Shown: piece by piece, positions 2-28,969 of the stretch
Layout of the letters: each line of letters begins with the position of its first letter
Numbering within the stretch: position 1 is the first letter of the stretch
From: Clostridia bacterium
GTDB lineage: Bacteria; Bacillota; Clostridia; Christensenellales; UBA1242
NCBI GenBank assembly: GCA_045588795.1
Contig: JAZNEY010000024.1
Span: 1 to 39,986, forward strand
Direction of reading: 5' to 3'
DNA: 39,986 bases
Translations under genes and position numbers: made by a program
Notes under the pieces: model-generated
What the model saw: only the letters and a program-made list of their open reading frames with translations
What the model was told of the DNA's origin: nothing
Database searches by the model: none

Positions 2-3000
2 GATGGAGATGGACACGCAGAGCCTGTATACTTCAACCCAGCAGATGGAAAGTTCTACGCAAAACGCACAGTTGACAAGTCATACATCTACGAGGCAGAC
101 ACAAAAGCCTTTACAGAGGTTGTGGAAATTGGTGGCGAGTATTACCTAGCAAACGAGAAAGACTACTATTCATATATAGGAAAAGAAACAGTATATTTAT
201 ATAAGAATGAATTATATACAAACTCAGCATCAAAAATCCAAGCATTCATTGACAACAATCTAGTGCTAACAGCATCAGCGATATACAACTTTGCACTTTA
301 CAATGGAGTATATTTCAGAGAAAGCAGAACAGAAAACGACACATTCGGGCTTACAATTGCAGACAAGTGGAATCCAGAAATTTCACTAGTTCAAAAGATT
401 GACCCATCAACTGGTGAGCCTCAAGTAGACGATAATGGCGACCCAGTATATGAAGAGCAAATAACATATGAAGATATCAACATTGAAGCATTATTTATGT
501 TATTTGACCAAGATGGAAATATAAGAGGCGACATAGCCTACTGGTTTGATGAAAAAGGAGCTCTAGCTGAAAAGGTTACCGTACTTATTGCAAGAGACAT
601 AGCGACAGAGGAAAAGTACAGAATAATAACAAGCGAGGCAGACATCAAGAAAGACTCAGAGGGTAACCCACTTGAAACAGTTCAGTCAGTTGAAATTGAA
701 CTTGCAGGGCTTGTATTTGACCCAACCTATCACGGAACAAAGAATGTATTTACAGATGACAAGCACACAGTAATAATTTCAAAACTTGCTCAATACTTTG
801 AAAGCGACAAACTTGCAGACTGGAACGAAACCGAGTTTACAGGAGATGAAAAAGACTACATCAACCTATACGAAAAAAGCGACAGCGAGTTATATGAAGT
901 CAAGGCAAACTTCCACGCAAACGAATTACTTGATATGCCAACATCAATCAACTACTTAGTTGCAGATGTAATAATTACGACCTATGACAACTTAAAATAC
1001 AACCTAGACAATGTGGCTAGCCCTGGCGAATATGACATTTGCCTAAGATATATCTATGACGCAGAAATTCAAAGATATGAATATCTTGGTGCACTTGGAA
1101 TTGAAACAGCAATGTTCTATGAAGTTGATGGCAGATATTACAGAATAACAGATGAAATTGGCGAAGAACACTTCTACGACCTAATTGTTGAAAGGACATA
1201 TGTAACAGATATTAAAGATGCACTTGGCGAGAATTACAGACTAATTGAACGCGAGGCAGTTCAATATGTATTTGACACTACCCCACTTGACCCTGTAACA
1301 TCAAGCGAGTTCTATCACTTATACACTGGAAAAATTGCTCAATACATTTACACAGAAAAATATAATGGAGCAGTTGTTCTTGGACAGAACTTAAAGAATG
1401 AATATATTTATTCATTAGAGATTGAGGGCTTGAAACTAACAAGCACGGGCTTTACAGAAGTTCCAACTCCAATCTATTACGCATATGAAGAACTTGACTT
1501 AACTGGTGCAAATGTAATAATCCGTACAAATTACGATTATGCAAACGCTAAAAAACTTTCATTTGATGAAACAAAAACCATTCTTCCATACTTCACAGCA
1601 GATGACCAAAGCACAAATTACGACGCAAGCAACACAACCGAGAAAGTTGTATACGACAGCGAGGGCAATGCAAGAGGTGTCGAGGGACTTACAAAGGTTT
1701 ACACATTCACAAACCCAATCAACCTACAAAAGATAGTTGTTTCTAAGGGCTCTGGGAATGTAACACTTGAAAAAGTTGTAACCTACAACAATGTAAATCT
1801 TTTAACATCATCTAATATGATAAGTGATGTTGAGATTGAGATTGCATACTACTATGCAAGTGGCTACAAAAAGAGTGGCATAGACATTTACAACTACCTA
1901 AGCACAGATGGCGACTTCTACTTCTACATAGTTGATGAAACGCTTGGCGGAGTTTACATCAAGAGTTCTGGAAAGATGTCAAATGTAAGTGGCACCGACA
2001 TATACGCATATGACTACCTATCACTTGTTGAGACCTCTTACCTAGATGAGAGCACCAACCGAGTATATTACGCAAAGGTATTTGTTGAGAAAGATGGTAA
2101 ATACCTAACGACAACAACAGCAATCACAGCCAACTTTGGAAAACTATATTATGGCTTTGCAGATGATGGAGTAGAAAGACTTGCACTTACAACCGACACA
2201 AAAACAAGAACATACTCATCATCAGGCTACATAAGAACAGCACACGCAAGCAACTCCGGTCAACAAGTAGACTTGCTTGGAAAGAGCATAATGACAAGCA
2301 CAACTCCAATCATCTACCCAAGTTTCCTAGCAGTTGCAAGCGTAACAAACCAAAGTTCAACCGACAAAGGCTTTATCTACGACAAGTCAACATATTACCA
2401 AATAGATTACAGCAGTAAAGAAATCACCAAGTACGGTTTACCGGGTGTAAAGGTACTTGATGGAGCACCTTACCCTAACACAGTTATTTCATTCAGTGTA
2501 AGACACAAGATACACGACCAAAGTGTTGTATACCTAGCACTTGAGATTGAAAAGGTATTCAGTGTAGAACTTGCGAACTATGTACAAATGAAAGACGGAA
2601 CAAACATTTCGCTCGAACATCAAACATACGCATTCAAAGACACTGAAACGAACATTGACTTAAACAACTACCCAGATGAAGTAATAGCAATAACAAACAA
2701 ACTTACATCTGAAAGTTTGTACTCATCAGACAAGTACAACCTCGCATCAAGTTCATTTGCAAAACCAAACTACTTACCAAACACCGGCGAAGTTATACTT
2801 TCAAGCAGAGATGTTGCAACAATAATGACATATGAATATGTAGACTACGAGAACAACCAATTAAAATCTGATTACACAGATATAAATTACATTTCAGACT
2901 ACCTATTCTATGACACACCAATGGTATTAATTGGCGACAGTTCTCAAAAGATGGGAGCAATCGGAACGGGTGCAAAGGTTTACGCAAAGCGAACAAACGC

Positions 3001-6000
3001 TCACGACTATTCAATCACAGTTGATAGCGCGACATATTACTATGAGGCAGATGACACCGCATCAATCTTCTACTTGCACTACGCTACCCCATTCTCATCA
3101 ATTCCAACAAATGCAAACCCATACGATTACACAAAGGTACTTGCATATGATGAGAACGGACAACAAAGTGCGACCTACTACTTTGAAAAGGTGAAGATAA
3201 CAAATTCAGCGGGAGACATCATTTACAAGAACGGAAACACTTCCGCACCATACTACTTATACACAAACGACATCACCTCGAACTTTATGCCATACGCATT
3301 TGATGAGACTTGGTCAAACAACACCAGCGACCCATACAGTGTTCGTGAAAGAATGTTAGCACTCAAAAACGGAAACGATAAGATTGTTGACAGATTAATA
3401 GCATCACACTTCAGATATAATGTAATAGATGGCTGTTGGTACGAAGTTGTATACGACATTTACAAAAATGCAACACTTAGAAATGACTACAACTACTGGA
3501 CAAGTGATTACAACAAGATTGAAAATGCCGGAACGATTGATATGCACACATACATACTTCAAGCAGATGGCTCACTAGTATTAACAAGTGAATGTACAAT
3601 CGACCAAATATGTAACGACCTATATTATGAGGACAACGCAGTAACAGAGTATGGCGAATTAATCATCTCTGGAACAACAAGTGCATACCGAACAACGATA
3701 TCATCAGTAAGCGACAAGGCAAAGAGTTATCAAGGATATTACAGAGCACTTCCATACAACATAAAGAACGCATATCTTGCAGACAGCAGTTACTTTATGA
3801 TAGGAGTTGAAGAAGTAATACTCGTAACAAACCCAACAATCACAATCACTGATGGCTTAAATTCAGTTATATACAGATTTAAAGAATGGCAAGCATTCAC
3901 AAGATACAACAGCGAAGTAATGTATAAAAACAGCGAAGTAACTTTTGAAAACGCAAACAATGCGACATTCAAGTTCACAAGCGACCTTGCAAAATATTAT
4001 GTATTCTTCCCTGTTTACGAAAGAGTCTACTCAGTAACACTAGAAAGCAGAGTTATTGATGGAGAATCTAACCAAGGTGGAACAATCACCACATACTATA
4101 AAGATGGAAAGAGAGTTGAGGGCGACAATCAAAAGATTGAGAACTCATCAAGCGACATTCACTTTATAGAGTACTCTTCAACAGGTAAAACTGAAAGTGC
4201 AGATGGAAAGACAAACCTAACCTACACATATGAAGAGATGGACATTGACAACTATATATTCACAACAGAATACCAAGCATTTGAAGTTGTGATTGATGAA
4301 AACACCGACCAAACGGTAGCACTTCCACTTTATGTATCAACAACAGAGGGTGCATTAAATGGCAGGGGCTATATGTCAGGAAAGGTACACTCATCAGCAT
4401 ACGCAGGTCCATTGTTTGCGGGAATTGCAGGTGGAACATCTTATGTATATAAATATGTATATAATAATGTTACAAAGCAATACTCACTTCAAAAGGTTAC
4501 AGATGCAAGCACAATTTCAAGCACGCTATATGATAAGATTTATTCAAACAACACCTATGTTAAAAGCACAGTTGACGCTGATACTACTGTTCCATATATG
4601 ATTGAACAAGCGATTGGTGCAAGCGACTTAAAAGTCGGCTACACCGATTTAGAGTATGGCGAAGAGGTTACAATCTTCAACATTCCGGGAGTTAACTACG
4701 GAGTAACCAAAGCAGGTACTAATAATGATTACCAATATTATTTATATTCATTATCTGAAATAGGTGCAAGCAAAGAGTTATTACCAATCAACTACTCAAA
4801 CGGAAGATACTTCTTCGTACTTGACAAAGATGGTAATTACCTAAGCGTAGACACAATAGTAAATGACTTTATTGAAAGAAACCCAGAATCATACAGCAAA
4901 CTTGCAATACTTTACGATATAAGTCAATACTCATCTGATGGAAAGATTGATGAGAAATATCTAACCTACTACGACAAGACAATGAGACAACCAACATTTA
5001 CATCAACCGCTCAACTATTCTCATTTGCACTAACACTTTACAGAGAGGGTTATGAGGGAATCCGCGATATCCTTGCTCCAATGTTTAAAGACCTTGAAAG
5101 TGCAGATGGTCCAGAATATTTCGTATACTATATGAACCCAGTTAACTACTTGTTCGAAAGCGGATATTCAAACGCACAAATCACACACAGTTCTGCAAAA
5201 CTTAACAGAACAACAAGTGCAAACATTGTAAGATTAAATCTAGACAGCAAAGATGAAGAGTTCATTCAACAACTTTACACAACAAAGAAAATCTCAATGT
5301 CAACAAACACCTCACTAATGAGTGCAATCAAGACAGGCATTTACTTTGATGTATATTCAGTTGATGACAATGCTCCAAATCTTTACATCACACACACATC
5401 AACCGGCAGACGCCACACCTACACAAAGGTTAACGCAATTGACCTAAAGGGCGGTAGTGCAATCCTATTCTACTCAGCAAGTGCAAACAGATATGTAATA
5501 AATGCAGGAACAGAAGTTACCGGTCTTGAACTTGCCGGCAACCTATTGAAAGCAAGAACAATCAACGGTGAAACCTACTACTTCTACATCACAACAACAA
5601 GCACAAGCCTAACCCTAACCAAACAAGCAGATGGCGACAACTTCGCAAGAGAGATTGTTCAAAAAGCGAACTATGTTGGAATTGAGGGCAACGACAGTAA
5701 AAGTGGCGAGTGGTATGTTTCAGCAGACACATATTACAGTGGAATGGACAATGTTTCACTCAACCAAAACTTCGACAGACACACAATCATTCAGTTGCAA
5801 GCAGTAGCAGATGATGGATACAGATTCGAGGGCTGGTATTTCGCTCAATACAACGAAGCGACTGATGAATTTGTAATCACCGAAAGAGTTGGCGGAACCA
5901 ATGATGGATATGCTTATTTAGATGAAATCAAGCACCTTGAACTTGTTGGTGAAAATTATGTAACAGTTGAGGGTGTAGAGGGCTTTGGTCTTTCAGGCGA

Positions 6001-24000: not shown

Positions 24001-27000
24001 ATCATCTCTTGCAATCAGAGTAAAAGTTAAAGCTATGTCAGGTAAAGGTTACCCAAGTATTCAAATTATCTTAAACGGTTCAACCAAACAAGAAATAAAT
24101 GAAGATATTGAGGGAATGTCAAGACACAACCATTACAACGCGTACTACCAAACTGATGGAGAAAATGTTGAAGTTAAGAATTATACATACGGAAACTACA
24201 AAGCATTTAACAACGAAATCCGAACTGAAAACGGAATGGTTAAGAGCAACGCATATAATGTTATAGTTGAATGTGCATTCCAAATCAATTGCGTAGCACT
24301 TGAAATTGGTATGAATTACAACGCAGAAACAGATGGCGATACAGGATATCTTACCTCACCATCTGATGAAAATGAAAATAACGAATACTTAAAAAACATT
24401 GAAACAAACGAATTGATTTCATTGTTAATTGAAACAGGAAGCGACCCAACAAGGAAAGAAGAATACGATAATTTATGTGTAACACTTACCTCACTGTTCA
24501 GTAACTATTCAATCTACAAGTTCAAAGGTGCAAACACAATACTTGAACAATTAAACGAATTCACCGAGATACTTGAAATTGCATACAAAGAAGGAAGCAA
24601 CAATTCCATAACTGAGATATTTGACCTACCAACAGACAAAAATGGTAATAGTGAACTTTATTTTGATACGAATGATGTTGATGATGCACTTAAACAAATT
24701 GATGCACTAGTTAAAGAAGGTGCTATTGTTCTAAACAACCAAGAATTATTGTTCAGACAAGTTGCAAAACTAATGGTTGAAGACATTACGAACGCATACT
24801 TAAAACGAGAGGGTAAATCTGGTGCTCCTGCAACAGTAAGTACCGCAGCAAACAAACTACTTTCAGCATTTGAAACATATATCAAATCTGGAACATTAAA
24901 GATGACCGAATTATTTGATAAAACATCATCTCTACCAATCCTAGGTAATAACACTGTTAGTAAAAACGACAACATACACTTATTTATCAGCGGTTCGCGC
25001 TTCATAATCTACAACAGTAAAGAAGCAAAAACTTCTTCGACAGACATTAAAGAGGATATGATTGTACAGGAAGTTAAAATTTACAATACAAATGGTAAAT
25101 TAACAGACAATATGTATATGCTTATGAACGATTTCATTTCGTATTGCAGTAATGACATAGCAGAAGTTCCAGACTATAACTACGTAGACACAAACATTAA
25201 TTCTACCTCACTTCTAACCTACTATTATATGGCATCAGTAATTACTCTTTACGAAGAAGCAACAAATGTTGAAGAAAAGGATAAATCAAAAATTGATTTT
25301 AACGAAGACATACCAAAATACATAGACCATTACACAGGGCTTCTATCAGTTCAAGATTTCCTTGAAAACTTTGGAACTTATTACAACACAGTAATATATG
25401 ACTTGTTACAAACCTATACAGTTGCAAAAACATACAACACAGAAGAATATTGGCAAGAATATAAACGAATTGCAATTTCAGCATATCTTGCTTACGGACT
25501 TGTATTTGATGATTACACATTCACATCTGGAACAATAGTATTCTTTGACCACTTAAAACTTGAAAATGTTACAAGCATTGATTTGAATAATTGGTCATAT
25601 GAAAAATTAAAATCAATTCAAAATTTCAGTGTCTTAAACGAATTATTGAATCAAGTCACAAGTCAATTTGACAACATCACCTACCGCGATACATTCGACA
25701 CACCAATTGCAATTGACTTTAGCGTAATTGATTTAATTAAATCAACAGTTGACTATGCTCAATCAATACCAGTGATGCAACTCTCTGTCAACCAAGTCGA
25801 AACAATGACTCTTAGATACTATTTGCCAAATATAATAAACTTCTTAAACGACAGTGTTGATGGAGATTGGAGCTCTGATTTCCGCACAACAGTTGCTAAA
25901 TACAAAGGCAATGAAGATGATTTATTGGCTTACTGGCAAAGAGGTCTTGAACAGTTAATCAGGAATGTAAAAAGTTATACCGCAACAACATATGTTTGGA
26001 GTGATGAAAACTCTAACTATTCAATCGCACCAGATGATATATATTATTCAGGAATATCATTGGTTGACTATTTCCAAGCGTTAGATATTGTAAAATATAA
26101 TGATGACGAATGGTGTACAGAATGTTCAGAGTATGTTGGTGATTATGGTCATATGTGTTACTGCAATAATGAAGATTATACCAATATTGAAATAGATGGA
26201 TTACAGAATAAAAATGGCAGCAACAAGAAAGACAGGTTCTACTTTACAAATGATGGTTCAGATGGAGAACATAAAGGCGAAACATACAACTACTTAGCAT
26301 ATGCACTATTCCTTAATCTTAATGAAGCAGGCGGTTATGATAGTAATACAGGATCTGATTCAACCAGACATTCGCTAAAATCATTTATGGAAATAAATTA
26401 TTACACTTATCTCAACTGCACACCAACATCAGAGGTAACTCAATATGTTGAATATGTAAAAGCAAATCAATCATTCGGCCTTGTTAGTGGTAGCTTAAAC
26501 AATAGCAGAGATTTATATCGCGCAGTAATTCTTACCGCAGTCAGAAAAGGATATCACGCATCAACAAGTGATGGAACTCCAACCACAACAAGTAAATACG
26601 ACCCAATAGAAAGTGAAATGGAAGAAATTAATCCAAACCATTTATTTGGCAGAAATGAAAATGATAAAAATTACGAACCACTTCGCGCATATATTGGTGA
26701 TTATGATGCAAAGACTGGCGAAGCAGATGGAAATGGCACCCTATACAAACACCTACTATTAAGTGAAACACCAACACGAGAAGTTACAATGAATGTTAAT
26801 GGTGCTGTTCAAAACCAACCATTCTTGTACTACTTAATGAATGGCTTCAATGCACAACTTTATCAATTACAACTTGCAAACCAATACCAAGTTCTAGCAT
26901 TAGAATCTGCTGAGGAGTTAGAAAGAAACTATGCATATGATTACGGTATATATCAAATAAGAACTACATATGACAAAGGATATGGCAATGAGCTCCTCAC

Positions 27001-28351
27001 TCCAGAAAACAAATTTGAACTTCAAGATTGGGTTGCCGCATATATTCACATATCTGGAAATCAAGGACCTCCTGATGATTGGCCAGTAAGTTATATAAGA
27101 GGTTTCCAACATAGCGTACCTCTCAGCGGAGACCTTAACGCTGACCTATACCAAACAATAATGACAACATATATTGCAAATGTTTACGAACTGTCTCAAA
27201 TGGAATGGTGGGCAAATTACAACGACCTTATAATAACCAACATTGATCTAAAAGAGCAAATCTCTCTTGGTTCAATTGATAAGATACGAACTGAAACAAA
27301 GAAAGGTTTCCTTGGAATTGGAAATGAGAGCAGACTAATGGCAAATGCAAATACACAAGCCGGTGGCAATATTTATAGCACAACACATAAATTAACTACT
27401 AATGAATCAAAAATAATTTCTCAACACACTGGAAAATATTATGTACATCCAGCATCAAGTGGATATGCATATGATACAGGTGTTGCAGGTTCAGGCACAA
27501 AATTATTAACTTCAAACGAAGTACTAAATGCAGTTTGTGCAATGTACGGACAAGATGTAACAAACATTGATGCCGTTGCATCAGCAAAAACTTCACTATT
27601 AGACAGATTCTTCCAAAGTTATCTTGCAAACAGTAGTTCAAAAGGTGTTAACTATGACACAGAATTGAATCTCACAGGAAATTCCGCAACAACGATTGAA
27701 GAACTTTCCAATAAACGAACAACTTGGATTTCAATGAATTCAGGATATTCGTTGCGGCTAGAATCGCACATAATACTAAACAATCAAGGCACCGGAGAAC
27801 ACAAAATCAGTTTCACCAGTGACAGTGAAAGACTTCGAAACACAATTGTCATAGGCTCAGCTAATAATTTTGACAACCTAGAAAATGGTACAGAAAATGC
27901 TACCAATTTGAAAAACGGAAGAATATACATCCGCTCTCTTGGACCAATTTATAATGATCAGATTTTAGTAGACCCAGAGACAATTAAGGAAATGAAAACA
28001 ATCGAAATCATAGCTATTGTAATCACAATAATAATTGTTGTAACAATCATTATTGCGACACAAGGCTCAGGATTTAAAGAGGCAATTAGTTCTGCATCGG
28101 CAGTCTTAAAAGCCGGAATGAAATTAACAATCTCCATACTGAAAGGCATTTTAAAACTCATATTTGGATCTACATTAAACATTGTCTTAAAAGCTCTTGC
28201 CACGGTTGCAATTGTCTCAGTTGTAACTGGATTAACGAATACCGCAACGGGACTGCTACTTTCATATAAAACAACAAGTATCTTAGAACTTGGCTCACCA
28301 GATAAAGCAACATTCGGAAGAATGACAAAATTTGAAAGTTTTGTACGCTAA
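2..28351 (+). CDS. giant (>=9,449 aa, 5'-partial) Tyr/Asn/Thr/Asp-rich putative cell-surface protein with InlB B-repeat (Flg_new)-like modules, helical inserts and a C-terminal transmembrane anchor
   Basis: No stop codon in this frame from nt 2 to the TAA at 28349-28351. The 40 codons before the ORF-track GTG (122) read DGDGHAEPVYFNPADGKFYAKRTVDKSYIYEADTKAFTEV, the same composition as the rest. AGAGG ends only 2 nt before that GTG, so it is not a credible start and the true start lies upstream of the window. Across the same 28 kb the other five frames never exceed 117 codons. The sense strand is A-rich. Product features were read from the translation. Confidence 0.93.
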   Translation, partial: DGDGHAEPVYFNPADGKFYAKRTVDKSYIYEADTKAFTEVVEIGGEYYLANEKDYYSYIGKETVYLYKNELYTNSASKIQAFIDNNLVLTASAIYNFALYNGVYFRESRTENDTFGLTIADKWNPEISLVQKIDPSTGEPQVDDNGDPVYEEQITYEDINIEALFMLFDQDGNIRGDIAYWFDEKGALAEKVTVLIARDIATEEKYRIITSEADIKKDSEGNPLETVQSVEIELAGLVFDPTYHGTKNVFTDDKHTVIISKLAQYFESDKLADWNETEFTGDEKDYINLYEKSDSELYEVKANFHANELLDMPTSINYLVADVIITTYDNLKYNLDNVASPGEYDICLRYIYDAEIQRYEYLGALGIETAMFYEVDGRYYRITDEIGEEHFYDLIVERTYVTDIKDALGENYRLIEREAVQYVFDTTPLDPVTSSEFYHLYTGKIAQYIYTEKYNGAVVLGQNLKNEYIYSLEIEGLKLTSTGFTEVPTPIYYAYEELDLTGANVIIRTNYDYANAKKLSFDETKTILPYFTADDQSTNYDASNTTEKVVYDSEGNARGVEGLTKVYTFTNPINLQKIVVSKGSGNVTLEKVVTYNNVNLLTSSNMISDVEIEIAYYYASGYKKSGIDIYNYLSTDGDFYFYIVDETLGGVYIKSSGKMSNVSGTDIYAYDYLSLVETSYLDESTNRVYYAKVFVEKDGKYLTTTTAITANFGKLYYGFADDGVERLALTTDTKTRTYSSSGYIRTAHASNSGQQVDLLGKSIMTSTTPIIYPSFLAVASVTNQSSTDKGFIYDKSTYYQIDYSSKEITKYGLPGVKVLDGAPYPNTVISFSVRHKIHDQSVVYLALEIEKVFSVELANYVQMKDGTNISLEHQTYAFKDTETNIDLNNYPDEVIAITNKLTSESLYSSDKYNLASSSFAKPNYLPNTGEVILSSRDVATIMTYEYVDYENNQLKSDYTDINYISDYLFYDTPMVLIGDSSQKMGAIGTGAKVYAKRTNAHDYSITVDSATYYYEADDTASIFYLHYATPFSSIPTNANPYDYTKVLAYDENGQQSATYYFEKVKITNSAGDIIYKNGNTSAPYYLYTNDITSNFMPYAFDETWSNNTSDPYSVRERMLALKNGNDKIVDRLIASHFRYNVIDGCWYEVVYDIYKNATLRNDYNYWTSDYNKIENAGTIDMHTYILQADGSLVLTSECTIDQICNDLYYEDNAVTEYGELIISGTTSAYRTTISSVSDKAKSYQGYYRALPYNIKNAYLADSSYFMIGVEEVILVTNPTITITDGLNSVIYRFKEWQAFTRYNSEVMYKNSEVTFENANNATFKFTSDLAKYYVFFPVYERVYSVTLESRVIDGESNQGGTITTYYKDGKRVEGDNQKIENSSSDIHFIEYSSTGKTESADGKTNLTYTYEEMDIDNYIFTTEYQAFEVVIDENTDQTVALPLYVSTTEGALNGRGYMSGKVHSSAYAGPLFAGIAGGTSYVYKYVYNNVTKQYSLQKVTDASTISSTLYDKIYSNNTYVKSTVDADTTVPYMIEQAIGASDLKVGYTDLEYGEEVTIFNIPGVNYGVTKAGTNNDYQYYLYSLSEIGASKELLPINYSNGRYFFVLDKDGNYLSVDTIVNDFIERNPESYSKLAILYDISQYSSDGKIDEKYLTYYDKTMRQPTFTSTAQLFSFALTLYREGYEGIRDILAPMFKDLESADGPEYFVYYMNPVNYLFESGYSNAQITHSSAKLNRTTSANIVRLNLDSKDEEFIQQLYTTKKISMSTNTSLMSAIKTGIYFDVYSVDDNAPNLYITHTSTGRRHTYTKVNAIDLKGGSAILFYSASANRYVINAGTEVTGLELAGNLLKARTINGETYYFYITTTSTSLTLTKQADGDNFAREIVQKANYVGIEGNDSKSGEWYVSADTYYSGMDNVSLNQNFDRHTIIQLQAVADDGYRFEGWYFAQYNEATDEFVITERVGGTNDGYAYLDEIKHLELVGENYVTVEGVEGFGLSGESQYLKDANGRVETLPEALENLYAGKFITYAVVNGTRKNVTYDSAKLQYLDDRGNVIKASAPSDDTDEIKIYSRQVFEGNDGNYYYDYNLTFQVPTELIKFIDDNEYTLFSQTQFELESNATNLVYKYEETNGNKYYYQDMNGTDNDPFMVNSKGEYVSMLNTSGDALNYNSYVGTVTSNNIVSSLTSALRLEGSIDLTIQNQSDNFTIKKAGEPIAKLGIGTKLNPISFGENPNAKGLLYSGGKLYPAVQINYTYKDTGYLAMRFVVTVSVSPSGDINFAITTNYFNNEETGTSLTISNENELETLLTLINTKGEAKYLEEFSGMTVQSNINALSARGGENPGGNNYVYDFHYSVSKAQISASGSSYNYIVSYYHEMLNPFGTLTSKVSVFENVTGLTTFTVYESTPISLEYKYARTPSNMMDATGMGAFSSLMKPYGAFYTFTTGGFDLKELGIKQLDSTGNESTTSLTTLYYRLADDTFYYLDYAVDVTTGSTTLKLTALNMGEEFTTEQAQNGEAIFNLKATVNKLSEDDAGERVYLHEGRLYRTREDGAYTVKGDTLTINQLRENVYIVARFIENYYTLVFADQNENSTIHVEDMYYFDYESNNNATILNADGVKIQSANSVETVKFGNISMEYSIKGEMIPKTANQKLPDEDGALYEYYVAYYKNGQDGKDAGEQPEQVTVYSLENKYTNPNFDPYSAKFYTLYRGRMYEIKAGESGKRDIANYDFGSYIFEQKFATDQIKTLSSAIIDYEGTDYYAFTITYLTEDEFQNLSQGKGAKTKTATIYSSESSLGIQYADNNGVRVGYLVDGNGEMLTSGLGVMSGSAGDEFKTSIECPVLEGGYYTLPLPSGNEIAYIRSIEKTGGDYNTADYSYLSALTQKLSLKTDKDGNVVDVINPKDMTISISDGTEAKVGGSKLSVNFVNQGIYIDTNTTLVIIVSCDAKSKISASYTTNPFYELTPLFYPSEEFVSRNAQNYNTEDKYYEKLYYAYLVTFNRSLENEYSEYMTQQSRGESIMFDTTELESDTFKNLYQLNDKEQFLSDFGTNVLEEDTRTAEILGIEDNIYTFYNYSQYTEKTLVRGYSYYSQATRSFYEEVYEGETFKGYYAYILGDNYDSESIVHGFNASEYNANLLNHEINPYYTIAGRPIYMCIGNSDGSPAGGLEQLERILQRDYGFTFVKDSYTLMEVSTDIYAMHKKPTPSSIKVTESTLNEYSIIAQQFLYFMDTTMSDISIASIRAELDVYGGDGDRYYEKYLSRELALNGENSTDKTVYTGVNGVLSKLYNEYLTRRNSYETNGDKTVLESYILNVVNNLISLTHGGSYSDAKEAVKFLFASYYDEVSASYTGEGLFYHYIDNEKMPEGSTNLLNVAPYLLSLQTATADDEKEIFLSACDILFDFTIYRIVELAHTYFGNARLVINEDWKAEIESEEDYLQLYELDTMSIFYNDGATGSKTEITFNALLGYAQSYLKEAKYGYEKFTQIAKDLGLTAEELSASMTRNPASFKILYNQMTENLKRLYFRNKYQNNNWDTTHALDLMRNYLQCYNDYNELIGKLQYISEKNFSQSGALNILRFSSIVVYALDLQASILNYNEGKADDDSTPENEYVEGFYETLSPYEFVEDDGDPSTIEAESENFIKLYEFFAGVGRDDITVLDTDADVEAKDLQRWYKDYGDDLTSFYAGTGLHEESLEAKAYIEYLRIYNKFKDNIEDLSYYYTLDENKLYAPTGQYKTMTIAIDTLMTVKARALDGVGAKNNEFTAIQDEDYTTVKLADGNIYNIRFAGWYYSNQANTSISSDFENMTLLTTDYQSGLIAMQNNTTMIAVYRTFEYWSFTYNPSEVRVRINQTHDSFGNPLTYSTDSVTGNITISGYFDTGTNIDATVTPLAGKAFTSIENNYHKVKAFNEAGDEVELDSLDAVRYEYASSTDPLNAMLVGTTIETNTKSEINNAIATRTLRMMVSSKTWEFDPSTLEASAKDINSFVLKAEEAKLVVFKIYGSISADKDGNYVDVFNYTINWWKNSDPTNMNLITVDKTGASNFDPELYIEELFDQEGNVIGSRYLGVDEFMQPIQIAYATETSPLHYYIFGYFKEDTTVSISTSSDKGTEFLDAWYVDGEEEKTAQDENGNTIIKVTTDDLAHLAVGYYDKQRVDLQVNTVIMNGTYDGSEGKTPFEFGTEIPAYKTLLDDLLDGIMEDSNGIALNYGKDGARYVNGQKADDVGNTLMLKYYGFDSTVKDNYVPNASGYPTYQYNSLSEFTIVTPEYVYTDMYTYKFVGWYSVSSGKSTLVATTNVVDTLKVDGKLRLDAVYEILPKVDLVTDTANSNLSVETGNPAGIYDFLYGRIPVGAESTIRGNAQTGRQLKEVIFHYTNAKGEQTLVLDMNTLTRENWVRLFPIYKDGKITTQITWQETEDNGRSTYETTTNLENLTKIEITTVQNANVNLAFSVYQTEFYDKLLATNTIDMSNLPYMKNDASDEDSYLLSKRDKFEMFAEYQKFYVEDLTKDEKTGIYRFNKNLANQGFTISAPMVTFEGKTTRFIGWYVDGKLVSTDVSYFAYYSNETNKFPQTKVNAGEDILIEARFSVSPTASILQDEGEENSGFTVLQIIDGDPAVLLQPFASSEELTSVLLANFGKYQPEVYTTFNGVKVNTPSGFYNLVGLDGDSEKLYATSEGELRPTAFYVYDEVLGMLTELEVKRDRTRRYTVIPFADFAGKTVVVNYSTASMDDLGVNFTVMQTYNGTLTRTSSAGNITATISLMTNSPSGMNVSATNNILQADLVDGKLEMCSTTFPYAEFSTGEASEVTLELDKLQANFAGWYVNGEFIGNAQTVKFNPDNGDIIEARYYSQTRVFAFEAITTSYVNGKFVTMRESTNLVALVTNGNTASSTIDNATVSGAGVPTSPYYIYSSRNGLIDRVEALGSTQIRLYAKSELSGGAFVLRGFYYETASGQQVQIKSTLETGSSYVGEINFKSSDIPEGVTKIYAHYGASTKLTVEVNTDGITGILPDGIVGISHGLGLTTDAVQKEYEFTVKLTDSYGYVITGIGYNSDGDDKGITPVTAYTSEGVTTYSGKIEILGENNLVTIYAKNQMKKDVSVYTACFDTVLTNPVKTQIVGVTTLTADATMAYSYTVGDQSYTKTLKFVGWYLLEQSTGKTSLLAYDKTLSLNAQDENIDKYVIVKKYDADGNNNLIPTSNVLSVSVAGEKVSAEDISGVSGDTFENLGITLETIENTCILDAHSFVSSEIGKDYSFVGWYKNGVLLGRSSSLQYEISKGTSQNVEARFTQGLVEIIPEVYSKNNETGEYEVHPEEITYTILTTSTLSVNKRAGAGQDVLVSIKLPKGYKINIEKTQEMMETLETKIDFLVCGNDQDAGSASILVPRLAIEALITEGFSEYTLPIYLSDKLPEEHEQIVQTFGGPAGDVAYEIKREYDIDGVKDLVIHITSYNTEVTVVNNPTVTLDSHAFTLNTYYFFYNPFVYNTNDGSALINDNKYTNGYSALTGDGTIAVPAGTVFYYYSLSARPNNSTFSSHYLADVETNNVFTLTTAPVNTRILTNPAKINTTYLVRSDDTSLPTYDFDEYAHIYSHIKDITKSGEISYYTTELPPIDEVVGLSPFTDANLYMMTDSGYNIISDKVYRALPGGVTYFQKGSERQTFYVKTLGDYVIREVKFIDIESGKTIVGKPGEFYYEDEEDLDKEERTAVTEIIADNESKTYQTYEIESTENHYIVEIILKEVFSIELQIKVNGEWLTTEVNDEVGLVDTENSVIKFTDTNNIAFVDESEFYKFTVDDKNQIYFLKDDFETTQYILEEYAKNWIDPLNNVSGYTLNNITLITRGKVQDTVFNYDGDSSMSFADMLDESRIPVLTSRDGTIGIKENTIIVLNFASPFELPTMKLDAKIEKGLAGTKLNNALENALERDGDIDYEVKNIGYAEASITLKANSSVTDENGNIFYFKGWYLGQNVYDEVLDKTIYQETLISTSSYTTTQVAPSVNSQYIAYYTPEMKQVMIDLSGVTELGGKEVTINVGGVYCKVDDLLNTGTKLTVKPSIITSSLSTIGGIKVTSGYDQATGQIGFEEAQPAIILLEIPLMLIDTLTHFTVSFGISSYQIESERIGINGDVAKVSLDNKTTILSPENITSESVDLEISSQVQKYSTSYRVNNVGSNAYEGFVRTGHQFIPYYFVEAVVAGTTEQIQNNEIKFSLETTKDRMPEDPLNRTNYQTGEVTDERTSVILQRVVTYGEIAFLKVEYAGEIEYYGIYEITGLSSAYNRLHEVNLVNRLESKYIEFGSIGEAITYENVTYSAIGKVMIADVGEHTDSDDLYYNAFYNATTKKLIVLIDGHYYLFRFNNDPTVNNYVIEEITADVTEGTLLEYYLDSYTVDLSINAETSLGGAETVSISFERNISATGKASIVIGNGMQTLASATISIRSDIDNLELKTISDYTVRQTVKDVLKKIWDIQTVSFGGQDTMRLNYNALLEEINALPNVVDGAVSSILYGDTYYRRTAKAIKPGTRNLLDSLVSSTPGQIATFIASVQGSLEDGNVYVIACYDSDEDSNDPLNYPTLTVIPELQGYWFIYTHSEKANGTSGFGIDYSDEDYKYFAYDFFSIEESKGVNEYLFTDYFAERLKTDGNYLEAWDNTNWTSVSKDLHRTTTYKEYSKLINRNVVYFADFVNLFPDINIKTLVFGWSNDMANTEIQTDLKKDFVATLTTTPMAGYTDTTIQFVSFGFFRDGATVTLKLTELSATEVEEVTDFTHGATNITNAIITNKRPGFEEFKEETALPITETKTHSPNGAVELNAYEYNTDDIVLRDDMVSIINVSAEILVKFDINAYAINRFATSIDLSKLAIKGESNYFKYLDLLAEMADKGLLDEYEKGYGTPRETDEIILDEITDEQRALFVKGEGSYLEIEQKALEIYQGYVNGIYKTYSGGSVTTVSESFTRSDAVKLLKELAEEEEIKYDITLDIIENKLKFMQSLITKYALDLESVNNFGYAVLESTVTESGEKAIYSTVSPDVKVSQAGYAENQSTVTITVNELTGYKFLGVLVRNESLYNSPLEITTQTNNNKNDQTFKARNEVFFAVDNAQEYRTGIIRANWTKAGSGVYNLLLTVCGAVTSSYSIIALYEDILFPVDLDIYKYNDERYSIAENKTEEGTIITEYEIKDGEEIKTYAIGDTLESTELYGYNKVSKEYFAIYKNSDDNIFYKDVKYTDKYDGDIYILGESPKYIKVNYNPYTDEDSFEGYVQGSLLVGKSTPLYLTAITYPYGQFSGWLFTNSVSEEEIKESQKQIEAEINGGTYYEYIVDMSKSYAHSLTELFESRYDDEYRFDSRHLASDLSNTLFTPNKIFYNGKTYYEYRYRVIDDTNKVNLEHTKLVEDYLEFKLNIADGIFYSTSSYSGIEYFISEISPDMYTNTEIEVLFIRNTGEKEVITLNACATENGDRENFIVEALFGEFSYGGIKGNMSDNVMYSFNDDMYSIGNIIFSRTSAEEKNANTEFFVYVNGKLVNIFDALNGYYFATGGTKWKDFVNSLIPRKAEMTYGEKVSNGPIYTFASDNFHSVTAVGSGIVSTLNGSAYLPESEDIKIYEDVKTYNAYTELDTDPPTTVIDFSGVQDAYSFDENPDSSNQGHFIKGEKTNYNVMSTNLSYRASIIAYFTTAYYTMYINVGEVEQIYDSNGAKDGNGNPTGGEKTYYSSFKGDIIEVDQITGDKYNSGADKGYFKTNPQGGVQLYTLDNTGNIVQDKTTSNIENYIYDLTGSVIGNTTTIYTVTTTENSGYKKNTNPTATAYISNSQEGLKSSNIVDIYGDSSKLTPLEQMQKGFSHFLNYDYILFSTAKQGNTVTTGELSSSYVFTKLKNTYIWDYSGQGVGYSKSSPFCVSDSSNNTKLESNLIFTMLFKTNDPKTMFNDNNYIIVAFNSMEAITQYTLSNSVSDISQYVTGEGNNAKVNEEKIQINTSNKGLVDIVPIVTTSGDFTKLTANNITGGIKNKQSSLAIRVKVKAMSGKGYPSIQIILNGSTKQEINEDIEGMSRHNHYNAYYQTDGENVEVKNYTYGNYKAFNNEIRTENGMVKSNAYNVIVECAFQINCVALEIGMNYNAETDGDTGYLTSPSDENENNEYLKNIETNELISLLIETGSDPTRKEEYDNLCVTLTSLFSNYSIYKFKGANTILEQLNEFTEILEIAYKEGSNNSITEIFDLPTDKNGNSELYFDTNDVDDALKQIDALVKEGAIVLNNQELLFRQVAKLMVEDITNAYLKREGKSGAPATVSTAANKLLSAFETYIKSGTLKMTELFDKTSSLPILGNNTVSKNDNIHLFISGSRFIIYNSKEAKTSSTDIKEDMIVQEVKIYNTNGKLTDNMYMLMNDFISYCSNDIAEVPDYNYVDTNINSTSLLTYYYMASVITLYEEATNVEEKDKSKIDFNEDIPKYIDHYTGLLSVQDFLENFGTYYNTVIYDLLQTYTVAKTYNTEEYWQEYKRIAISAYLAYGLVFDDYTFTSGTIVFFDHLKLENVTSIDLNNWSYEKLKSIQNFSVLNELLNQVTSQFDNITYRDTFDTPIAIDFSVIDLIKSTVDYAQSIPVMQLSVNQVETMTLRYYLPNIINFLNDSVDGDWSSDFRTTVAKYKGNEDDLLAYWQRGLEQLIRNVKSYTATTYVWSDENSNYSIAPDDIYYSGISLVDYFQALDIVKYNDDEWCTECSEYVGDYGHMCYCNNEDYTNIEIDGLQNKNGSNKKDRFYFTNDGSDGEHKGETYNYLAYALFLNLNEAGGYDSNTGSDSTRHSLKSFMEINYYTYLNCTPTSEVTQYVEYVKANQSFGLVSGSLNNSRDLYRAVILTAVRKGYHASTSDGTPTTTSKYDPIESEMEEINPNHLFGRNENDKNYEPLRAYIGDYDAKTGEADGNGTLYKHLLLSETPTREVTMNVNGAVQNQPFLYYLMNGFNAQLYQLQLANQYQVLALESAEELERNYAYDYGIYQIRTTYDKGYGNELLTPENKFELQDWVAAYIHISGNQGPPDDWPVSYIRGFQHSVPLSGDLNADLYQTIMTTYIANVYELSQMEWWANYNDLIITNIDLKEQISLGSIDKIRTETKKGFLGIGNESRLMANANTQAGGNIYSTTHKLTTNESKIISQHTGKYYVHPASSGYAYDTGVAGSGTKLLTSNEVLNAVCAMYGQDVTNIDAVASAKTSLLDRFFQSYLANSSSKGVNYDTELNLTGNSATTIEELSNKRTTWISMNSGYSLRLESHIILNNQGTGEHKISFTSDSERLRNTIVIGSANNFDNLENGTENATNLKNGRIYIRSLGPIYNDQILVDPETIKEMKTIEIIAIVITIIIVVTIIIATQGSGFKEAISSASAVLKAGMKLTISILKGILKLIFGSTLNIVLKALATVAIVSVVTGLTNTATGLLLSYKTTSILELGSPDKATFGRMTKFESFVR
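11357..17893 (+). repeat. cluster of divergent InlB B-repeat / Listeria-Bacteroides repeat (Flg_new)-like modules inside the giant CDS (protein-level repeats, not DNA repeats)
   Basis: Motif codons read directly: RFAGWY 11357-11374, FLDAWY 12338-12355, KFVGWY 12833-12850, RFIGWY 13625-13642, NFAGWY 14453-14470, KFVGWY 15437-15454, YSFVGWY 15761-15781, FYFKGWY 17873-17893. Most are followed about 25-45 aa later by an h-x-A-x-[FY] strand (MIAVY, LDAVY, IEARF, IEARY, VEARF, YIAYY). Outliers: YRFKEWQ 3872-3892, RFEGWY 5822-5839 (preceded by LQAVADDGY), QFSGWLF 21830-21850. Degenerate GFY/GIGY variants lie between them, e.g. VLRGFYYE...IYAHY at about 14.83-14.98 kb. Confidence 0.7.
28001..28266 (+). 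other. C-terminal membrane-anchor region of the giant protein (TM helix plus Lys-rich amphipathic/hydrophobic tail)
   Basis: Codons 28001-28060 encode IEIIAIVITIIIVVTIIIAT, 20 uncharged mostly beta-branched residues. They are followed by FKEAISSASAVLKAGMKLTISILKGILKLIFGSTLNIVLKALATVAIVSVVTGLTNTATGLLLSY, which is Lys-periodic and then contains a second hydrophobic stretch. No LPXTG-like motif precedes it. Confidence 0.75.
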
Positions 28352-28361
28352 AAAAACTAAT

Positions 28362-28397
28362 CCCCCTCCCCCCTTGGGGGGAGCCCCCAAAAGGGGG
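28362..28397 (+). terminator. tandem GC-rich hairpins 11 nt after the giant-gene stop (non-canonical terminator or 3'-end stabiliser)
   Basis: CTCCCCCC (28366-28373) / GGGGGGAG (28376-28383) is a perfect 8-nt inverted repeat, immediately followed by CCCCC (28384-28388) AAAA GGGGG (28393-28397). No U-tract follows on the + strand (GAACAAAACTAAAAC). On the minus strand a T-run lies about 10 nt past the hairpins. Confidence 0.55.
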
Positions 28398-28828
28398 AAC
28401 AAAACTAAAACAAAATAAAAGATAAACAATCAAAAATTAAAAAATCATATTCTAAATTAAACATCAATAATTTGTGGCTTTTTAAGGAAAAGCCAGCAAA
28501 AAAATCAGCCATAACTTCTATGGCTAAACAAACATAAGGTCATAAAGTTTAACTATTAATTTTATGACACAAATCAATAAAAAACTTTTACTTTTATCAC
28601 TTCGGCGACAACAAACAACTATCATAAAACAACCCTTTAAAAATGAAAATCGCGAGTCATTTTTAACCGGTCTTAAAGGATACTAGTTTCTCGGCGACCA
28701 AATATCCACCAAGATAGGACACAGCGATTAAAGTGCAAATTTCGAGCCAATTTTAATTGTGGTGAATTAAAAGGCTCCAAAAATAAATGCATTTAAAAAA
28801 CTTTTAGCTTCAAAGTTGATTGAAAAAA

Positions 28829-28913: not shown

Positions 28914-28940
28914 AAAAAACAAAACACTAAATTTTTAAAA

Positions 28941-28969
28941 TATTTGAAAAATTTAAAACTTTTCAAATA
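28941..28969. promoter_or_regulatory. perfect 10-bp inverted repeat, candidate operator upstream of the 610-aa gene promoter
   Basis: TATTTGAAAA (28941-28950) and TTTTCAAATA (28960-28969) are exact reverse complements separated by 9 nt. The repeat lies about 45 bp upstream of the putative -35. It is AT-only, so a chance palindrome is possible. Confidence 0.3.

What the first reader, a model, noticed from the sequence alone, without database searches (positions are those of the whole stretch)
2..28351. 5'-truncated giant gene: one open frame of at least 9,449 codons (28.35 kb) fills 70% of the window
The frame has no stop from nt 2 to the TAA at 28349-28351. The ORF-track start (GTG 122) is only the first start-like codon, because 40 sense codons of identical character precede it and no properly spaced RBS does. 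The real protein is therefore longer than 9,449 aa. The sequence is AT-rich and stop triplets are frequent, yet the other five frames never exceed 117 codons across the same 28 kb, so chance cannot explain this frame. Reading the translation, I see no long near-identical tandem blocks. This does not look like the usual adhesin built from dozens of cloned repeats, and it is unlikely to be a repeat-assembly artefact. Proteins of this size are among the largest known in prokaryotes, and apart from the motifs listed separately most of the length matches no family I can name.
Basis: partly seen in the sequence, partly recalled or inferred. Interest (0 to 1): 0.9.

Follow-up and report, generated by a model that had tools for sequence, protein, structure and literature searches.

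The report
Giant non-repetitive membrane-anchored protein gene
This is a real, 5'-truncated gene for a protein of more than 9,449 amino acids (at least about 12,000 codons of reading frame in a related gut bacterium) that has no internal repeats and no recognisable domain, belongs to a very rare family in uncultured gut Clostridia, and most likely sits on the cell surface held by a membrane anchor at its C-terminal end.

Summary
Frame 2 is open from nt 2 to the TAA at 28349-28351, which is 9,449 sense codons. Chance probability is about 1e-295, and the other five frames carry 482-763 stops each.

It is a real gene. Collinear homologues at 25-36% identity occur in at least 3-5 other lineages from metagenomes, at least some of them gut, including a GTDB 'uncultured Clostridia' MAG. 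Two independent assemblies of one species give dN/dS = 0.21, and all their indels are whole codons. In that species the reading frame covers at least about 12,000 codons and is still cut by the contig end.

The protein is not repetitive. Self-BLASTP finds nothing, and no DNA repeat exceeds 42 nt. Pfam (whole and tiled), PHROGs, NCBIfam and PDB sequences give no significant hit. An exhaustive HMMER scan of 1.84 billion proteins found only 7 fragments of the same family.

The recognisable features are few:
- about 9-11 very diverged F-x-G-W-Y modules that match the InlB B-repeat family only below threshold;
- strongly conserved islands in the membrane-proximal 1,500 aa;
- one strong C-terminal transmembrane helix followed by a basic tail;
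- a conserved downstream 610-aa membrane protein with SH3b-like traces.

My best reading is a new family of giant, C-terminally anchored surface proteins. The function is inferred, and structure prediction failed.

The parts
2..28351 (+). 5'-truncated giant ORF: 9,449 sense codons plus TAA. The frame runs off the window's 5' edge.
   Evidence: collinear homologues; dN/dS 0.21 in homologues
5651..5935 (+). F-x-G-W-Y module 1 (FEGWY at aa 1942). This copy gives the best sub-threshold match to the InlB B-repeat families.
   Evidence: Flg_new_2 E=0.0015 and Flg_new E=0.003, both below the gathering score
11186..11470 (+). F-x-G-W-Y module 2 (FAGWY at aa 3787)
12296..12403 (+). Degenerate module (LDAWYVDG, aa 4114-4121)
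   Evidence: weak HMM hit; DNA repeat family D2
12662..12946 (+). F-x-G-W-Y module 3 (FVGWY at aa 4279)
13454..13738 (+). F-x-G-W-Y module 4 (FIGWY at aa 4543)
14282..14566 (+). F-x-G-W-Y module 5 (FAGWY at aa 4819, ending ...IIEARY)
15266..15550 (+). F-x-G-W-Y module 6 (FVGWY at aa 5147). It lies in the best-conserved 100-aa block, 51% identical to L001.
15593..15877 (+). F-x-G-W-Y module 7 (FVGWY at aa 5256, ending ...NVEARF)
   Evidence: the structure attempt on this copy gave pLDDT 41
17705..17989 (+). F-x-G-W-Y module 8 (FKGWY at aa 5960)
21020..21223 (+). Possible extra degenerate module (aa 7007-7074), detected only by segment HMMs
   Evidence: E = 7e-6 from the aa 5926-6039 segment profile
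21659..21943 (+). F-x-G-W-L module 9 (FSGWL at aa 7278), conserved as F[AV]GWLF in L001, L002 and P0003
23699..27301 (+). Membrane-proximal conserved region (aa 7900-9100). It is the best-conserved part of the family and has mixed helix and strand character.
   Evidence: low-confidence model
24494..24535 (+). Invariant island LFSNYSIYKFKGAN (aa 8165-8178)
25475..25531 (+). Invariant island ISAYLAYGLVFDDYTFTSG (aa 8492-8510). It served as the search anchor that recovered L002 and L003.
27212..27259 (+). Invariant island ANYNDLIITNIDLKEQ (aa 9071-9086)
27998..28060 (+). Transmembrane helix TIEIIAIVITIIIVVTIIIAT (aa 9333-9353). It is the only strong hydrophobic segment in 9,449 aa.
   Evidence: present at the same place in P0001, P0003, P0005, P0006, P0009 and P0017
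28061..28348 (+). Basic, amphipathic and hydrophobic C-terminal tail (aa 9354-9449; 11 K/R against 4 D/E). A second hydrophobic stretch lies at aa 9386-9420.
29071..30903 (+). Conserved downstream partner gene of 610 aa. It has an N-terminal signal or anchor helix (aa 8-31), SH3b-like traces and a C-terminal TM helix (aa ~573-594) followed by a basic stub.
   Evidence: orthologues sit directly downstream of the giant gene in L001, L002, L003, L004, L005 and L008; 32% identity to L001's 647-aa protein, E = 8e-83; SH3_3 below threshold in 3 of 4 orthologues; hydropathy

Best explanation
The frame is the 3' 28.35 kb of a single real gene from an uncultured, low-GC (about 37%) gut Clostridia-type bacterium. 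It encodes a giant, strongly acidic, Cys-poor, non-repetitive protein.

The proposed mechanism is inferred, not shown. I propose that the protein is exported through a signal at the missing N-terminus. A single transmembrane helix about 95 residues from the C-terminus, followed by a basic tail on the cytoplasmic side, would hold it in the membrane. More than 9,300 residues (at least about 12,000 in a relative) would then project outward as a long, unique-sequence surface fibre or coat.

About 9-11 highly diverged F-x-G-W-Y modules related to the InlB B-repeat / Listeria-Bacteroides repeat are scattered between aa 1,900 and 7,300. The membrane-proximal ~1,500 aa carry the family's most conserved motifs and are the probable functional or assembly core.

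A conserved neighbouring type-I membrane protein with SH3b-like (cell-wall-binding type) traces probably works with it at the envelope. The most likely role is adhesion, or surface architecture towards host, food particles or other cells.

Shown here: the gene is real, it is under purifying selection, it is collinear with homologues, it lacks repeats and known domains, the C-terminal anchor is conserved, and the two-gene module is conserved. Inferred: export, orientation and adhesive function.
For: Gene reality:
- 9,449 open codons, P about 1e-295 by chance.
- Collinear homologues: L001 against window aa 4342-9414 at about 28% identity; P0009 (6,947 aa, uninterrupted) against window aa 2967-9419 at 27-35%; L002 against L001 at 36% over 4,540 columns.
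- dN/dS = 0.21 between L002 and L003, with in-frame indels only.

Length:
- L008 is called as 5,890 + 3,019 + 3,010 aa pieces and still reaches the contig end.
- L005 has a 6,217-aa piece plus a 2,270-aa piece.

Topology:
- The only strong TM helix lies at aa 9333-9353.
- The tail after it is net basic in all 7 family members tested (6-11 K/R against 1-4 D/E).
- There are no other TM-like windows, and the bulk carries a net charge of -585.

Surface character:
- Composition is rich in T, Y, S and N, with 0.3% Cys.
- The F-x-G-W-Y modules give their best, though sub-threshold, hits to Flg_new_2, Flg_new and the InlB B-repeat structure 2y5p.

Partner gene:
- It sits directly downstream in six other loci and is 32% identical to its L001 orthologue.
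- It has a signal or anchor helix, SH3_3 traces and a C-terminal TM helix.

Host and setting:
- L003 is a GTDB 'uncultured Clostridia bacterium' MAG.
- L007 is labelled as a gut metagenome.
- The window's neighbours are ordinary chromosomal genes and tRNAs.
- Published context: gut Clostridia proteins of 10,000-30,000 aa with Listeria-Bacteroides repeats are interpreted as adhesion-related.
Against: - No N-terminus or signal peptide was seen in any locus, because the window, L005 and L008 are all cut.
- No domain reaches a curated threshold, so 'B-repeat-like' rests on a five-residue motif and E-values of about 1e-3.
- Both AlphaFold2 attempts failed (pLDDT 37 and 41), and the fold searches returned noise. 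No fold-level evidence exists.
- There is no expression or proteomic evidence.
- The ~95-aa tail may hold one or two further membrane helices, which leaves the position of the extreme C-terminus open.
- Three homologous assemblies carry disruptions (an in-frame TAA in L001, a 13-nt deletion in L005, a frameshift in L008). Some alleles may therefore be pseudogenes or be expressed in pieces.
Confidence: 0.6

Rival explanations
1. It is a tail-anchored cytoplasmic giant protein. The C-terminal helix inserts into the membrane from inside and the >9,300-aa bulk stays in the cytoplasm as a scaffold or cytoskeleton-like element.
For: No N-terminal signal has been observed, because all copies are 5'-cut. 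A single C-terminal TM region is the defining layout of tail-anchored proteins.
Against: The segment after the TM helix is net basic and the segment before it is neutral to acidic in all members. By the positive-inside rule this puts the bulk outside. The composition (T/Y/S/N-rich, 0.3% Cys, net charge -585), the B-repeat-like modules and the fast divergence between species (25-36% identity) are typical of surface proteins. The conserved partner has a clear signal or anchor helix and an ectodomain layout.
Confidence: 0.12
2. It is a giant secreted or contact-dependent toxin or effector of the polymorphic-toxin, Rhs or MARTX type, whose active domains are too diverged to recognise.
For: The size is compatible, and more than 90% of the sequence is unannotated, so cryptic enzymatic domains cannot be excluded.
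Against: There are no RHS/YD, RTX, LXG or toxin-domain hits. GGxGxD occurs 0 times. The C-terminal end is the most conserved part and is a membrane anchor, whereas polymorphic toxins have a variable C-terminal toxin. The conserved gene immediately downstream is a 610-aa membrane protein rather than the small immunity protein such loci usually carry, and the 73-aa ORF beyond it (30973-31194) was not examined for conservation or function.
Confidence: 0.07
3. It belongs to a mobile element or phage, for example as a giant tail fibre, tape measure or conjugation surface protein.
For: Giant genes often ride on mobile elements. The giant gene's codon usage correlates only moderately with its neighbours (RSCU r = 0.68).
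Against: tBLASTn of the conserved 1,500 aa finds nothing in 50,697 phage records or 72,556 plasmids. PHROGs gives no hit and IMG/VR holds no relative. The flanks are housekeeping-type genes and tRNAs, with no integrase or phage genes seen. The homologue lies within a 314-kb MAG contig.
Confidence: 0.05
4. It is an artefact or dead DNA: a mis-assembled or chimeric contig, or a pseudogene relic whose open frame has no function.
For: The data are metagenomic. Homologous assemblies show sporadic stops, frameshifts and N gaps. For window aa 1-2966 no homologue was available to check collinearity.
Against: An open frame of 9,449 codons has a chance probability of about 1e-295. dN/dS is 0.21 and indels are in-frame in homologues. 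Collinearity over about 6,450 aa rules out chimeric joins in that part. No repeats exist that could mislead an assembler. Codon usage is uniform across both halves (r = 0.98).
Confidence: 0.03

Closest known systems
Giant (10,000-30,000 aa) predicted proteins of mammalian-gut Clostridia with Listeria-Bacteroides repeat domains, noted by West-Roberts et al. 2023 (bioRxiv 10.1101/2023.11.21.568195)
   Same: The host class is the same (Clostridia). The habitat appears to be the same: one related contig is labelled as a gut metagenome, and the gut origin of the others is my reading of sample codes. The size range is the same. Modules resembling the Listeria-Bacteroides / InlB B-repeat are present. 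The presumed role at the cell surface or in adhesion is the same.
   Different: Those proteins are described as built from recognisable repeated domains such as RCC1, Listeria-Bacteroides, YG, dockerin and LRR. Here no domain passes any curated threshold. The B-repeat-like modules make up less than 10% of the length, and the remaining 90% or more is unique, non-repeated sequence.
InlB B-repeat / Listeria-Bacteroides repeat domain (Pfam PF09479 Flg_new, PF18998 Flg_new_2; PDB 2Y5P)
   Same: The F-x-G-W-Y core is followed 20-35 residues later by a hydrophobic-x-A-x-[YF] strand. The modules are about 70-95 aa long and occur several times in a presumed surface protein of a Firmicute.
   Different: Scores are 18-19 bits against gathering scores of 23.6 and 27. 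Only 1 of 9 copies gives any hit. The profile against 2y5p gives E = 0.29. Copies are 11-23% identical to one another. The fold is not confirmed.
Omnitrophota giant proteins (up to 85,804 aa; West-Roberts et al. 2023)
   Same: They are largely unannotated giant ORFs recovered from metagenomes. Assembly fragmentation hides their full length, and conventional domain searches fail on them.
   Different: According to that paper, the Omnitrophota proteins have numerous transmembrane regions and mostly carry divergent SecA DEAD helicase domains. This protein has a single C-terminal TM region and no such domain. The phylum and habitat also differ.
Repeat-built giant adhesins (RTX adhesins such as LapA and MpIBP; Bap and Ebh; LPXTG-anchored MSCRAMMs)
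   Same: They are very large, acidic, Cys-poor surface proteins with a presumed adhesive role. The C-terminal hydrophobic segment followed by basic residues loosely recalls a sorting signal.
   Different: This protein has no tandem repeats at protein or DNA level and no RTX nonapeptides. The only LPXTG motif (LPNTG, aa 925) lies 8,400 aa from the C-terminus. The tail after the TM helix is about 95 aa rather than 5-10.

Membership tests
Listeria-Bacteroides repeat / InlB B-repeat (PF09479, PF18998) | Match to the Pfam model at or above the gathering score | tested here: not met
   The best scores are 18.9 bits (cut-off 23.6) and 18.0 bits (cut-off 27), for 1 of 9 copies. The tiled scan gives a best E of 0.004. 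Whole halves give no hit.
Listeria-Bacteroides repeat / InlB B-repeat (PF09479, PF18998) | Conserved G-[YF]-x-F-x-G-W core followed by a terminal hydrophobic-A-x-[WYF] strand, recurring within one protein | tested here: met
   There are 9 F-x-G-W-[YL] sites, against 10 GW dipeptides in the whole protein. Several end in IEARF, IEARY or LDAVY. The copies detect each other by HMM.
Listeria-Bacteroides repeat / InlB B-repeat (PF09479, PF18998) | Beta-grasp-like B-repeat fold | tested here: inconclusive
   The AlphaFold2 model of copy 7, using 9 internal copies as the alignment, has mean pLDDT 40.9. Foldseek returned noise. The profile against the 2y5p sequence gives E = 0.29.
RTX / type-1-secreted repeat adhesins | GGxGxD nonapeptide repeats near the C-terminus and tandem Ig-like repeats | tested here: not met
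   There are 0 GGxGxD motifs, no Pfam hit and no tandem repeats.
LPXTG sortase-anchored surface proteins | LPXTG motif directly upstream of a C-terminal hydrophobic segment and a short basic tail | tested here: not met
   The only LPXTG motif is LPNTG at aa 925. None lies within the 50 aa before the TM helix at aa 9333-9353. The tail is 91-113 aa long in all members.
Omnitrophota-type giant proteins | Numerous transmembrane regions and a divergent SecA DEAD helicase domain (as described in the paper) | tested here: not met
   TM-like segments occur only in the last 120 aa. There are no Pfam hits. The missing N-terminus is untested.
NRPS/PKS megasynthases | Condensation, adenylation, KS, AT and carrier-protein domains | tested here: not met
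   Pfam and NCBIfam give no hits over all 9,449 aa.
Rhs/YD polymorphic toxins | YD/RHS repeat shell and a variable C-terminal toxin | tested here: not met
   There are 2 chance-level YD-like matches and no Pfam hit. The C-terminus is conserved and membrane-embedded.
New family defined here (giant C-terminally anchored protein plus 610-aa partner) | Collinear homology, the invariant islands LFSNYSIYKFKGAN, AYGLVFDDYTFTSG and ANYNDLIxTNIDLKEQ, a C-terminal TM helix with basic tail, and the partner gene downstream | tested here: met

The most novel reading that the evidence does not exclude
This would be the founding member of an undescribed class of single-polypeptide, non-repetitive surface structures of at least about 12,000 aa in uncultured gut Clostridia. 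A membrane-rooted fibre tens to hundreds of nanometres long would be built from dozens of unique, fast-evolving domains with no known relatives. It would be assembled with a dedicated SH3b-like membrane partner and would form a new kind of cell appendage or envelope layer, rather than a variant of the known repeat adhesins.
Probability: 0.3. Interest if true: 0.85.

Novelty: new variant of a known kind. Interest (0 to 1): 0.68.

Why it matters
Nearly all known giant bacterial proteins are large either because one domain is amplified (adhesins) or because catalytic modules are chained (NRPS/PKS).

This protein is different. It has more than 9,400 aa of unique sequence, and at least about 12,000 codons of frame in a relative. 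It is kept collinear and under purifying selection across lineages. Pfam, PHROGs, NCBIfam and PDB sequences all fail to recognise it, and 1.84 billion representative proteins yield only 7 fragments of the same family.

It is therefore one of the largest contiguous stretches of protein 'dark matter' in a gut bacterium. If it is a surface fibre, it would bear on how uncultured gut Clostridia attach to host, mucus or particles. It would also supply dozens of new domain folds.

The case also shows how gene callers and assemblies split such genes into anonymous 'hypothetical' pieces, which makes them easy to miss.

Tried and rejected
Homologue searches:
- A 5,000-aa query timed out.
- The N-terminal 1,500 aa gave no homologue.
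- A query with L002's own upstream 1,000 aa, meant to pull out the full-length MAG protein, found nothing. The indexed database seems not to hold the long or cut products.

Scans of public collections:
- The first GTDB and IMG/VR scans used a weak motif chosen by the tool and found nothing.
- A re-anchored alignment then recovered L002 and L003.

Reaching the N-terminus:
- The window's 610-aa protein is not on record.

A conserved recoding or phase-variation site at the recurrent 'break' about 2,000 aa from the C-terminus was rejected. L004's break is a 10-N scaffold gap. L005's is a 13-nt deletion absent from two other assemblies. L001's is an in-frame TAA about 220 codons away. L008's is an N gap plus a frameshift that is absent from P0009.

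Structure prediction and fold search:
- The conserved aa 7900-9099 with an 8-sequence alignment gave pLDDT 37.
- One F-x-G-W-Y module with 9 internal copies gave pLDDT 41.
- Foldseek on both models returned only noise.

Profile searches against PDB sequences:
- The 14-copy module profile put InlB 2y5p at E = 0.29, among antibody and ferritin noise.
- The 5-sequence profile of the last ~4,000 aa found nothing below E = 0.48.

Other ideas:
- Phage or plasmid origin: no tBLASTn match.
- Alternative genetic code: 0 of 11 ORFs end in TGA, but the frame has no in-frame TGA either and the sample is too small.
Full report
OBSERVATION

Translating nt 2-28351 in table 11 gives 9,449 sense codons followed by a single stop, TAA at 28349-28351. 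The ORF lister reports 122..28351 only because it needs a start codon. The 40 codons upstream of that point are open, so the gene runs off the 5' edge of the window. No other frame within this span has an ORF longer than 117 aa, and the five other frames contain 482-763 stops each. Base composition gives a stop probability of 0.069 per codon, so the chance of 9,449 open codons is about 1e-295. GC content is 0.33-0.40 with a constant positive AT skew. Position-specific composition is uniform, and codon usage in the two halves correlates at r = 0.98. The window contains no Ns.

REPEATS AND ASSEMBLY ARTEFACTS

Self-BLASTP at E<=1e-3 returns only the identity hit. Tandem Repeats Finder reports four trivial 12-nt, two-copy arrays. 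The longest dispersed DNA repeat is 42 nt at 71% identity, and there are no inverted repeats. I built segment HMMs from a three-species alignment and searched them against the whole protein. Only one recurrent element appeared, the F-x-G-W-Y modules described below. The sequence therefore contains nothing that could collapse or duplicate during assembly.

KNOWN FAMILIES

The two halves give no hit at E<=0.01 in Pfam-A, PHROGs or NCBIfam, and none at E<=0.1 against PDB sequences. A tiled Pfam scan of 62 overlapping 300-aa tiles gave nothing significant. The best result was Flg_new_2 at E = 0.004, among chance-level DUF families. A five-sequence profile of the last ~4,000 aa found nothing in PDB below E = 0.48. 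There are 0 GGxGxD motifs. The only LPXTG motif (LPNTG, aa 925) lies 8,400 residues from the C-terminus.

THE ONE RECURRENT MODULE

Nine sites match [F]-x-G-W-[YL], at aa 1942, 3787, 4279, 4543, 4819, 5147, 5256, 5960 and 7278. The whole protein has only 10 GW dipeptides. Several modules end 20-35 residues later in IEARF, IEARY or LDAVY. Degenerate extra copies lie at aa 4114 (LDAWY) and about aa 7007-7074. The first copy matches Pfam Flg_new_2 ('divergent InlB B-repeat') at E = 0.0015 and Flg_new (Listeria-Bacteroides repeat) at E = 0.003. Both scores are below the gathering thresholds. A 14-copy profile places the InlB B-repeat structure 2y5p at E = 0.29 amid noise. The copies are only 11-23% identical to one another. 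I therefore describe them as 'B-repeat-like' and do not file the protein as a member of that family.

HOMOLOGUES AND SELECTION

The C-terminal 1,500 aa found one protein in the indexed search of 5.8 billion sequences: P0001, 2,213 aa. Its contig L001 shows that P0001 and the 3,230-aa ORF upstream are one frame interrupted by a single TAA. Together they are collinear with window aa 4342-9414 at about 28% identity, with no rearrangement.

An alignment anchored on the invariant block YLAYGLVF/DDYTFTSG recovered two more loci. L002 lies on an 89-kb metagenome contig. L003 lies on a 314-kb contig of a GTDB representative titled 'MAG: uncultured Clostridia bacterium ... Nepal'. L002 and L003 are 98.4% identical in DNA, and both keep at least 4,262 codons open up to the locus edge. 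Between them I counted 103 synonymous and 81 non-synonymous differences, which gives dN/dS = 0.21. The three indels are of 12, 12 and 1 codons. This is direct evidence of purifying selection on the reading frame.

An exhaustive HMMER search of 1.84 billion cluster representatives with a profile of aa 8008-9091 found only seven proteins. All are C-terminal fragments of this family. Looking up their clusters revealed P0009, an uninterrupted 6,947-aa product. P0009 is collinear with window aa 2967-9419 at 27-35% identity and has no internal repeats.

In scaffold L008 (same species) the gene is called as pieces of 5,890, 3,019 and 3,010 aa, and the first piece still reaches the contig end. That is at least about 12,000 codons with no start yet. 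L005 shows a 6,217-aa piece plus a 2,270-aa piece.

The N-terminal 1,500 aa of the window found no homologue. Window aa 1-2966 have no comparator in hand.

BREAKS IN THE HOMOLOGUES

I considered a conserved recoding site, because several loci break roughly 2,000 aa from the C-terminus. The breaks turned out to be unrelated:
- L004 has a 10-N scaffold gap.
- L005 has a 13-nt deletion that is absent from L002 and L003.
- L001 has an in-frame TAA.
- L008 has an N gap plus a frameshift that is absent from P0009.
I take these to be sporadic assembly errors or strain-level lesions in a very large mutational target.

ARCHITECTURE

The protein is rich in T, Y, S, L, E and N. It has 0.3% Cys and a net charge of -585. 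The only strongly hydrophobic segment is TIEIIAIVITIIIVVTIIIAT at aa 9333-9353. A weaker second hydrophobic stretch lies at aa 9386-9420. All seven family members tested have the same layout: one strong TM helix 91-113 aa from the end, a net-basic tail after it (6-11 K/R against 1-4 D/E), and no TM-like window anywhere upstream. By the positive-inside rule, which is established knowledge, the tail faces the cytoplasm and the giant acidic bulk faces outward.

Conservation peaks in the membrane-proximal 1,500 aa, which hold several near-invariant islands: GYPSIQI, TYGNYKAFNN, LFSNYSIYKFKGAN, ISAYLAYGLVFDDYTFTSG and ANYNDLIxTNIDLKEQ.

CONSERVED PARTNER AND GENOMIC CONTEXT

The 610-aa gene at 29071-30903 has an orthologue directly downstream of the giant gene in L001 (32% identity, E = 8e-83), L002, L003, L004, L005 and L008. 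It has an N-terminal signal or anchor helix, a C-terminal TM helix with a basic stub, and sub-threshold SH3_3 matches in three of four orthologues.

The rest of the window holds ordinary chromosomal genes: a CarD-like protein, MazG, an ArsP permease, tRNA-Leu and tRNA-Cys. The conserved region has no match in phage or plasmid collections, and IMG/VR holds no relative.

Sample labels point to gut metagenomes. L007 is labelled as one explicitly. The study-code names of L001, L004 and L008 (GAIO21, MERR22, LIJU14) suggest pig and human gut studies, but that reading is my own inference from the naming style.

STRUCTURE

Both AlphaFold2 jobs gave low confidence. For aa 7900-9099 with 8 sequences the mean pLDDT was 37.4, and only about aa 8459-8569 reached 55-80. 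For one F-x-G-W-Y module aligned with 9 internal copies it was 40.9. Foldseek against PDB returned noise for both models. No conclusion at the level of fold can be drawn.

INTERPRETATION

The best-supported reading (confidence about 0.6) is a new, very rare family of giant surface proteins of uncultured gut Clostridia. They are anchored in the membrane by their C-terminus and built almost entirely of unique sequence. They carry a few decayed B-repeat-like modules and a conserved membrane-proximal core, and they are paired with a dedicated membrane partner. Export, orientation and an adhesive or architectural role are inferred, not shown.

The rivals are:
- a tail-anchored cytoplasmic giant (0.12);
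- a cryptic toxin or effector (0.07);
- mobile-element cargo (0.05);
- an artefact or pseudogene (0.03).

COMPARISON WITH WHAT IS KNOWN

West-Roberts et al. (bioRxiv 10.1101/2023.11.21.568195) report gut Clostridia proteins of 10,000-30,000 aa that carry Listeria-Bacteroides repeats and other repeat domains. They also report Omnitrophota giants of up to 85,804 aa with many TM regions and SecA-like domains. The present protein shares the size class, the host class and the surface-type hints with the first group. It differs in being non-repetitive and in having no domain above any curated threshold. It fails the defining features of RTX adhesins, LPXTG proteins, Rhs toxins, NRPS/PKS and the Omnitrophota type. 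I rate it a new variant of a known kind, namely giant bacterial surface proteins, that founds a new sequence family.

VERDICT

Interest is 0.68. What is surprising is not the size itself. It is the combination of extreme length, complete lack of internal repetition, total absence of recognisable domains, collinear conservation under purifying selection, and extreme rarity in public data.

Noticed in passing
window 26111-26164 (aa 8704-8721): The cysteine cluster WCTECSEYVGDYGHMCYC (CxxC...CxC) contains 4 of the protein's 28 Cys. It sits in an insertion that is absent from the L001 homologue. It may be a lineage-specific metal-binding knuckle.
   Followed up: partly
window, all 11 ORFs examined (28349-39982): None of the 11 ORFs ends in TGA (8 TAA, 3 TAG), and the 9,449-codon frame has no in-frame TGA. 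The sample is too small to infer anything about the genetic code.
   Followed up: partly
window 30913-30941 and 30973-31194: A perfect sigma-70-type promoter match (TTGACA, 17 nt, TATAAT, with an upstream TG; 12 of 12) lies directly in front of a 73-aa ORF downstream of the partner gene.
   Followed up: no
window 37388-37551 (- strand): tRNA-Leu(TAA) and tRNA-Cys(GCA) lie 3 nt apart, next to an ArsP_2-type permease (37655-38713) and a MazG-like gene (36990-37343).
   Followed up: yes
L001 9693-9695; L005 ~9280; L008 ~500-515 and ~9620; L004 ~1910-1920: Homologous giant genes are interrupted at different sites: an in-frame TAA, a 13-nt deletion, a frameshift and scaffold N gaps. L002, L003 and P0009 are intact. 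Gene callers therefore report the gene as several anonymous pieces.
   Followed up: yes
C-terminal ends of P0001, P0003, P0005 and P0009: The last ~10 residues share a [DN]P..Y-like motif (TNADPSAYREF, STDPSDYRTTI, TNADPNAYTNF, TSNPRDYKDYV). The window has SPDKATF instead. This may be a cytoplasmic docking motif.
   Followed up: no
window 33541-34017 (+): A 158-aa ORF gives a sub-threshold HepT-like ribonuclease match (E = 0.0013, 18.8 bits against a cut-off of 23.5). It could be a remnant of a toxin-antitoxin pair.
   Followed up: no
window 2-28348: The coding strand of the giant gene is markedly A-rich (A 38%, T 24%; AT skew about +0.2 throughout). Its codon usage correlates only moderately with the neighbouring genes (RSCU r = 0.68).
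   Followed up: partly
L001 20879-21835 (- strand, 318 aa): By eye, the N-terminus (…KKKLISSVISILCCLAVMAVGVYASTTASF) resembles a SipW/TasA-type signal peptide. A 318-aa gene occupies the same relative position in L002.
   Followed up: no
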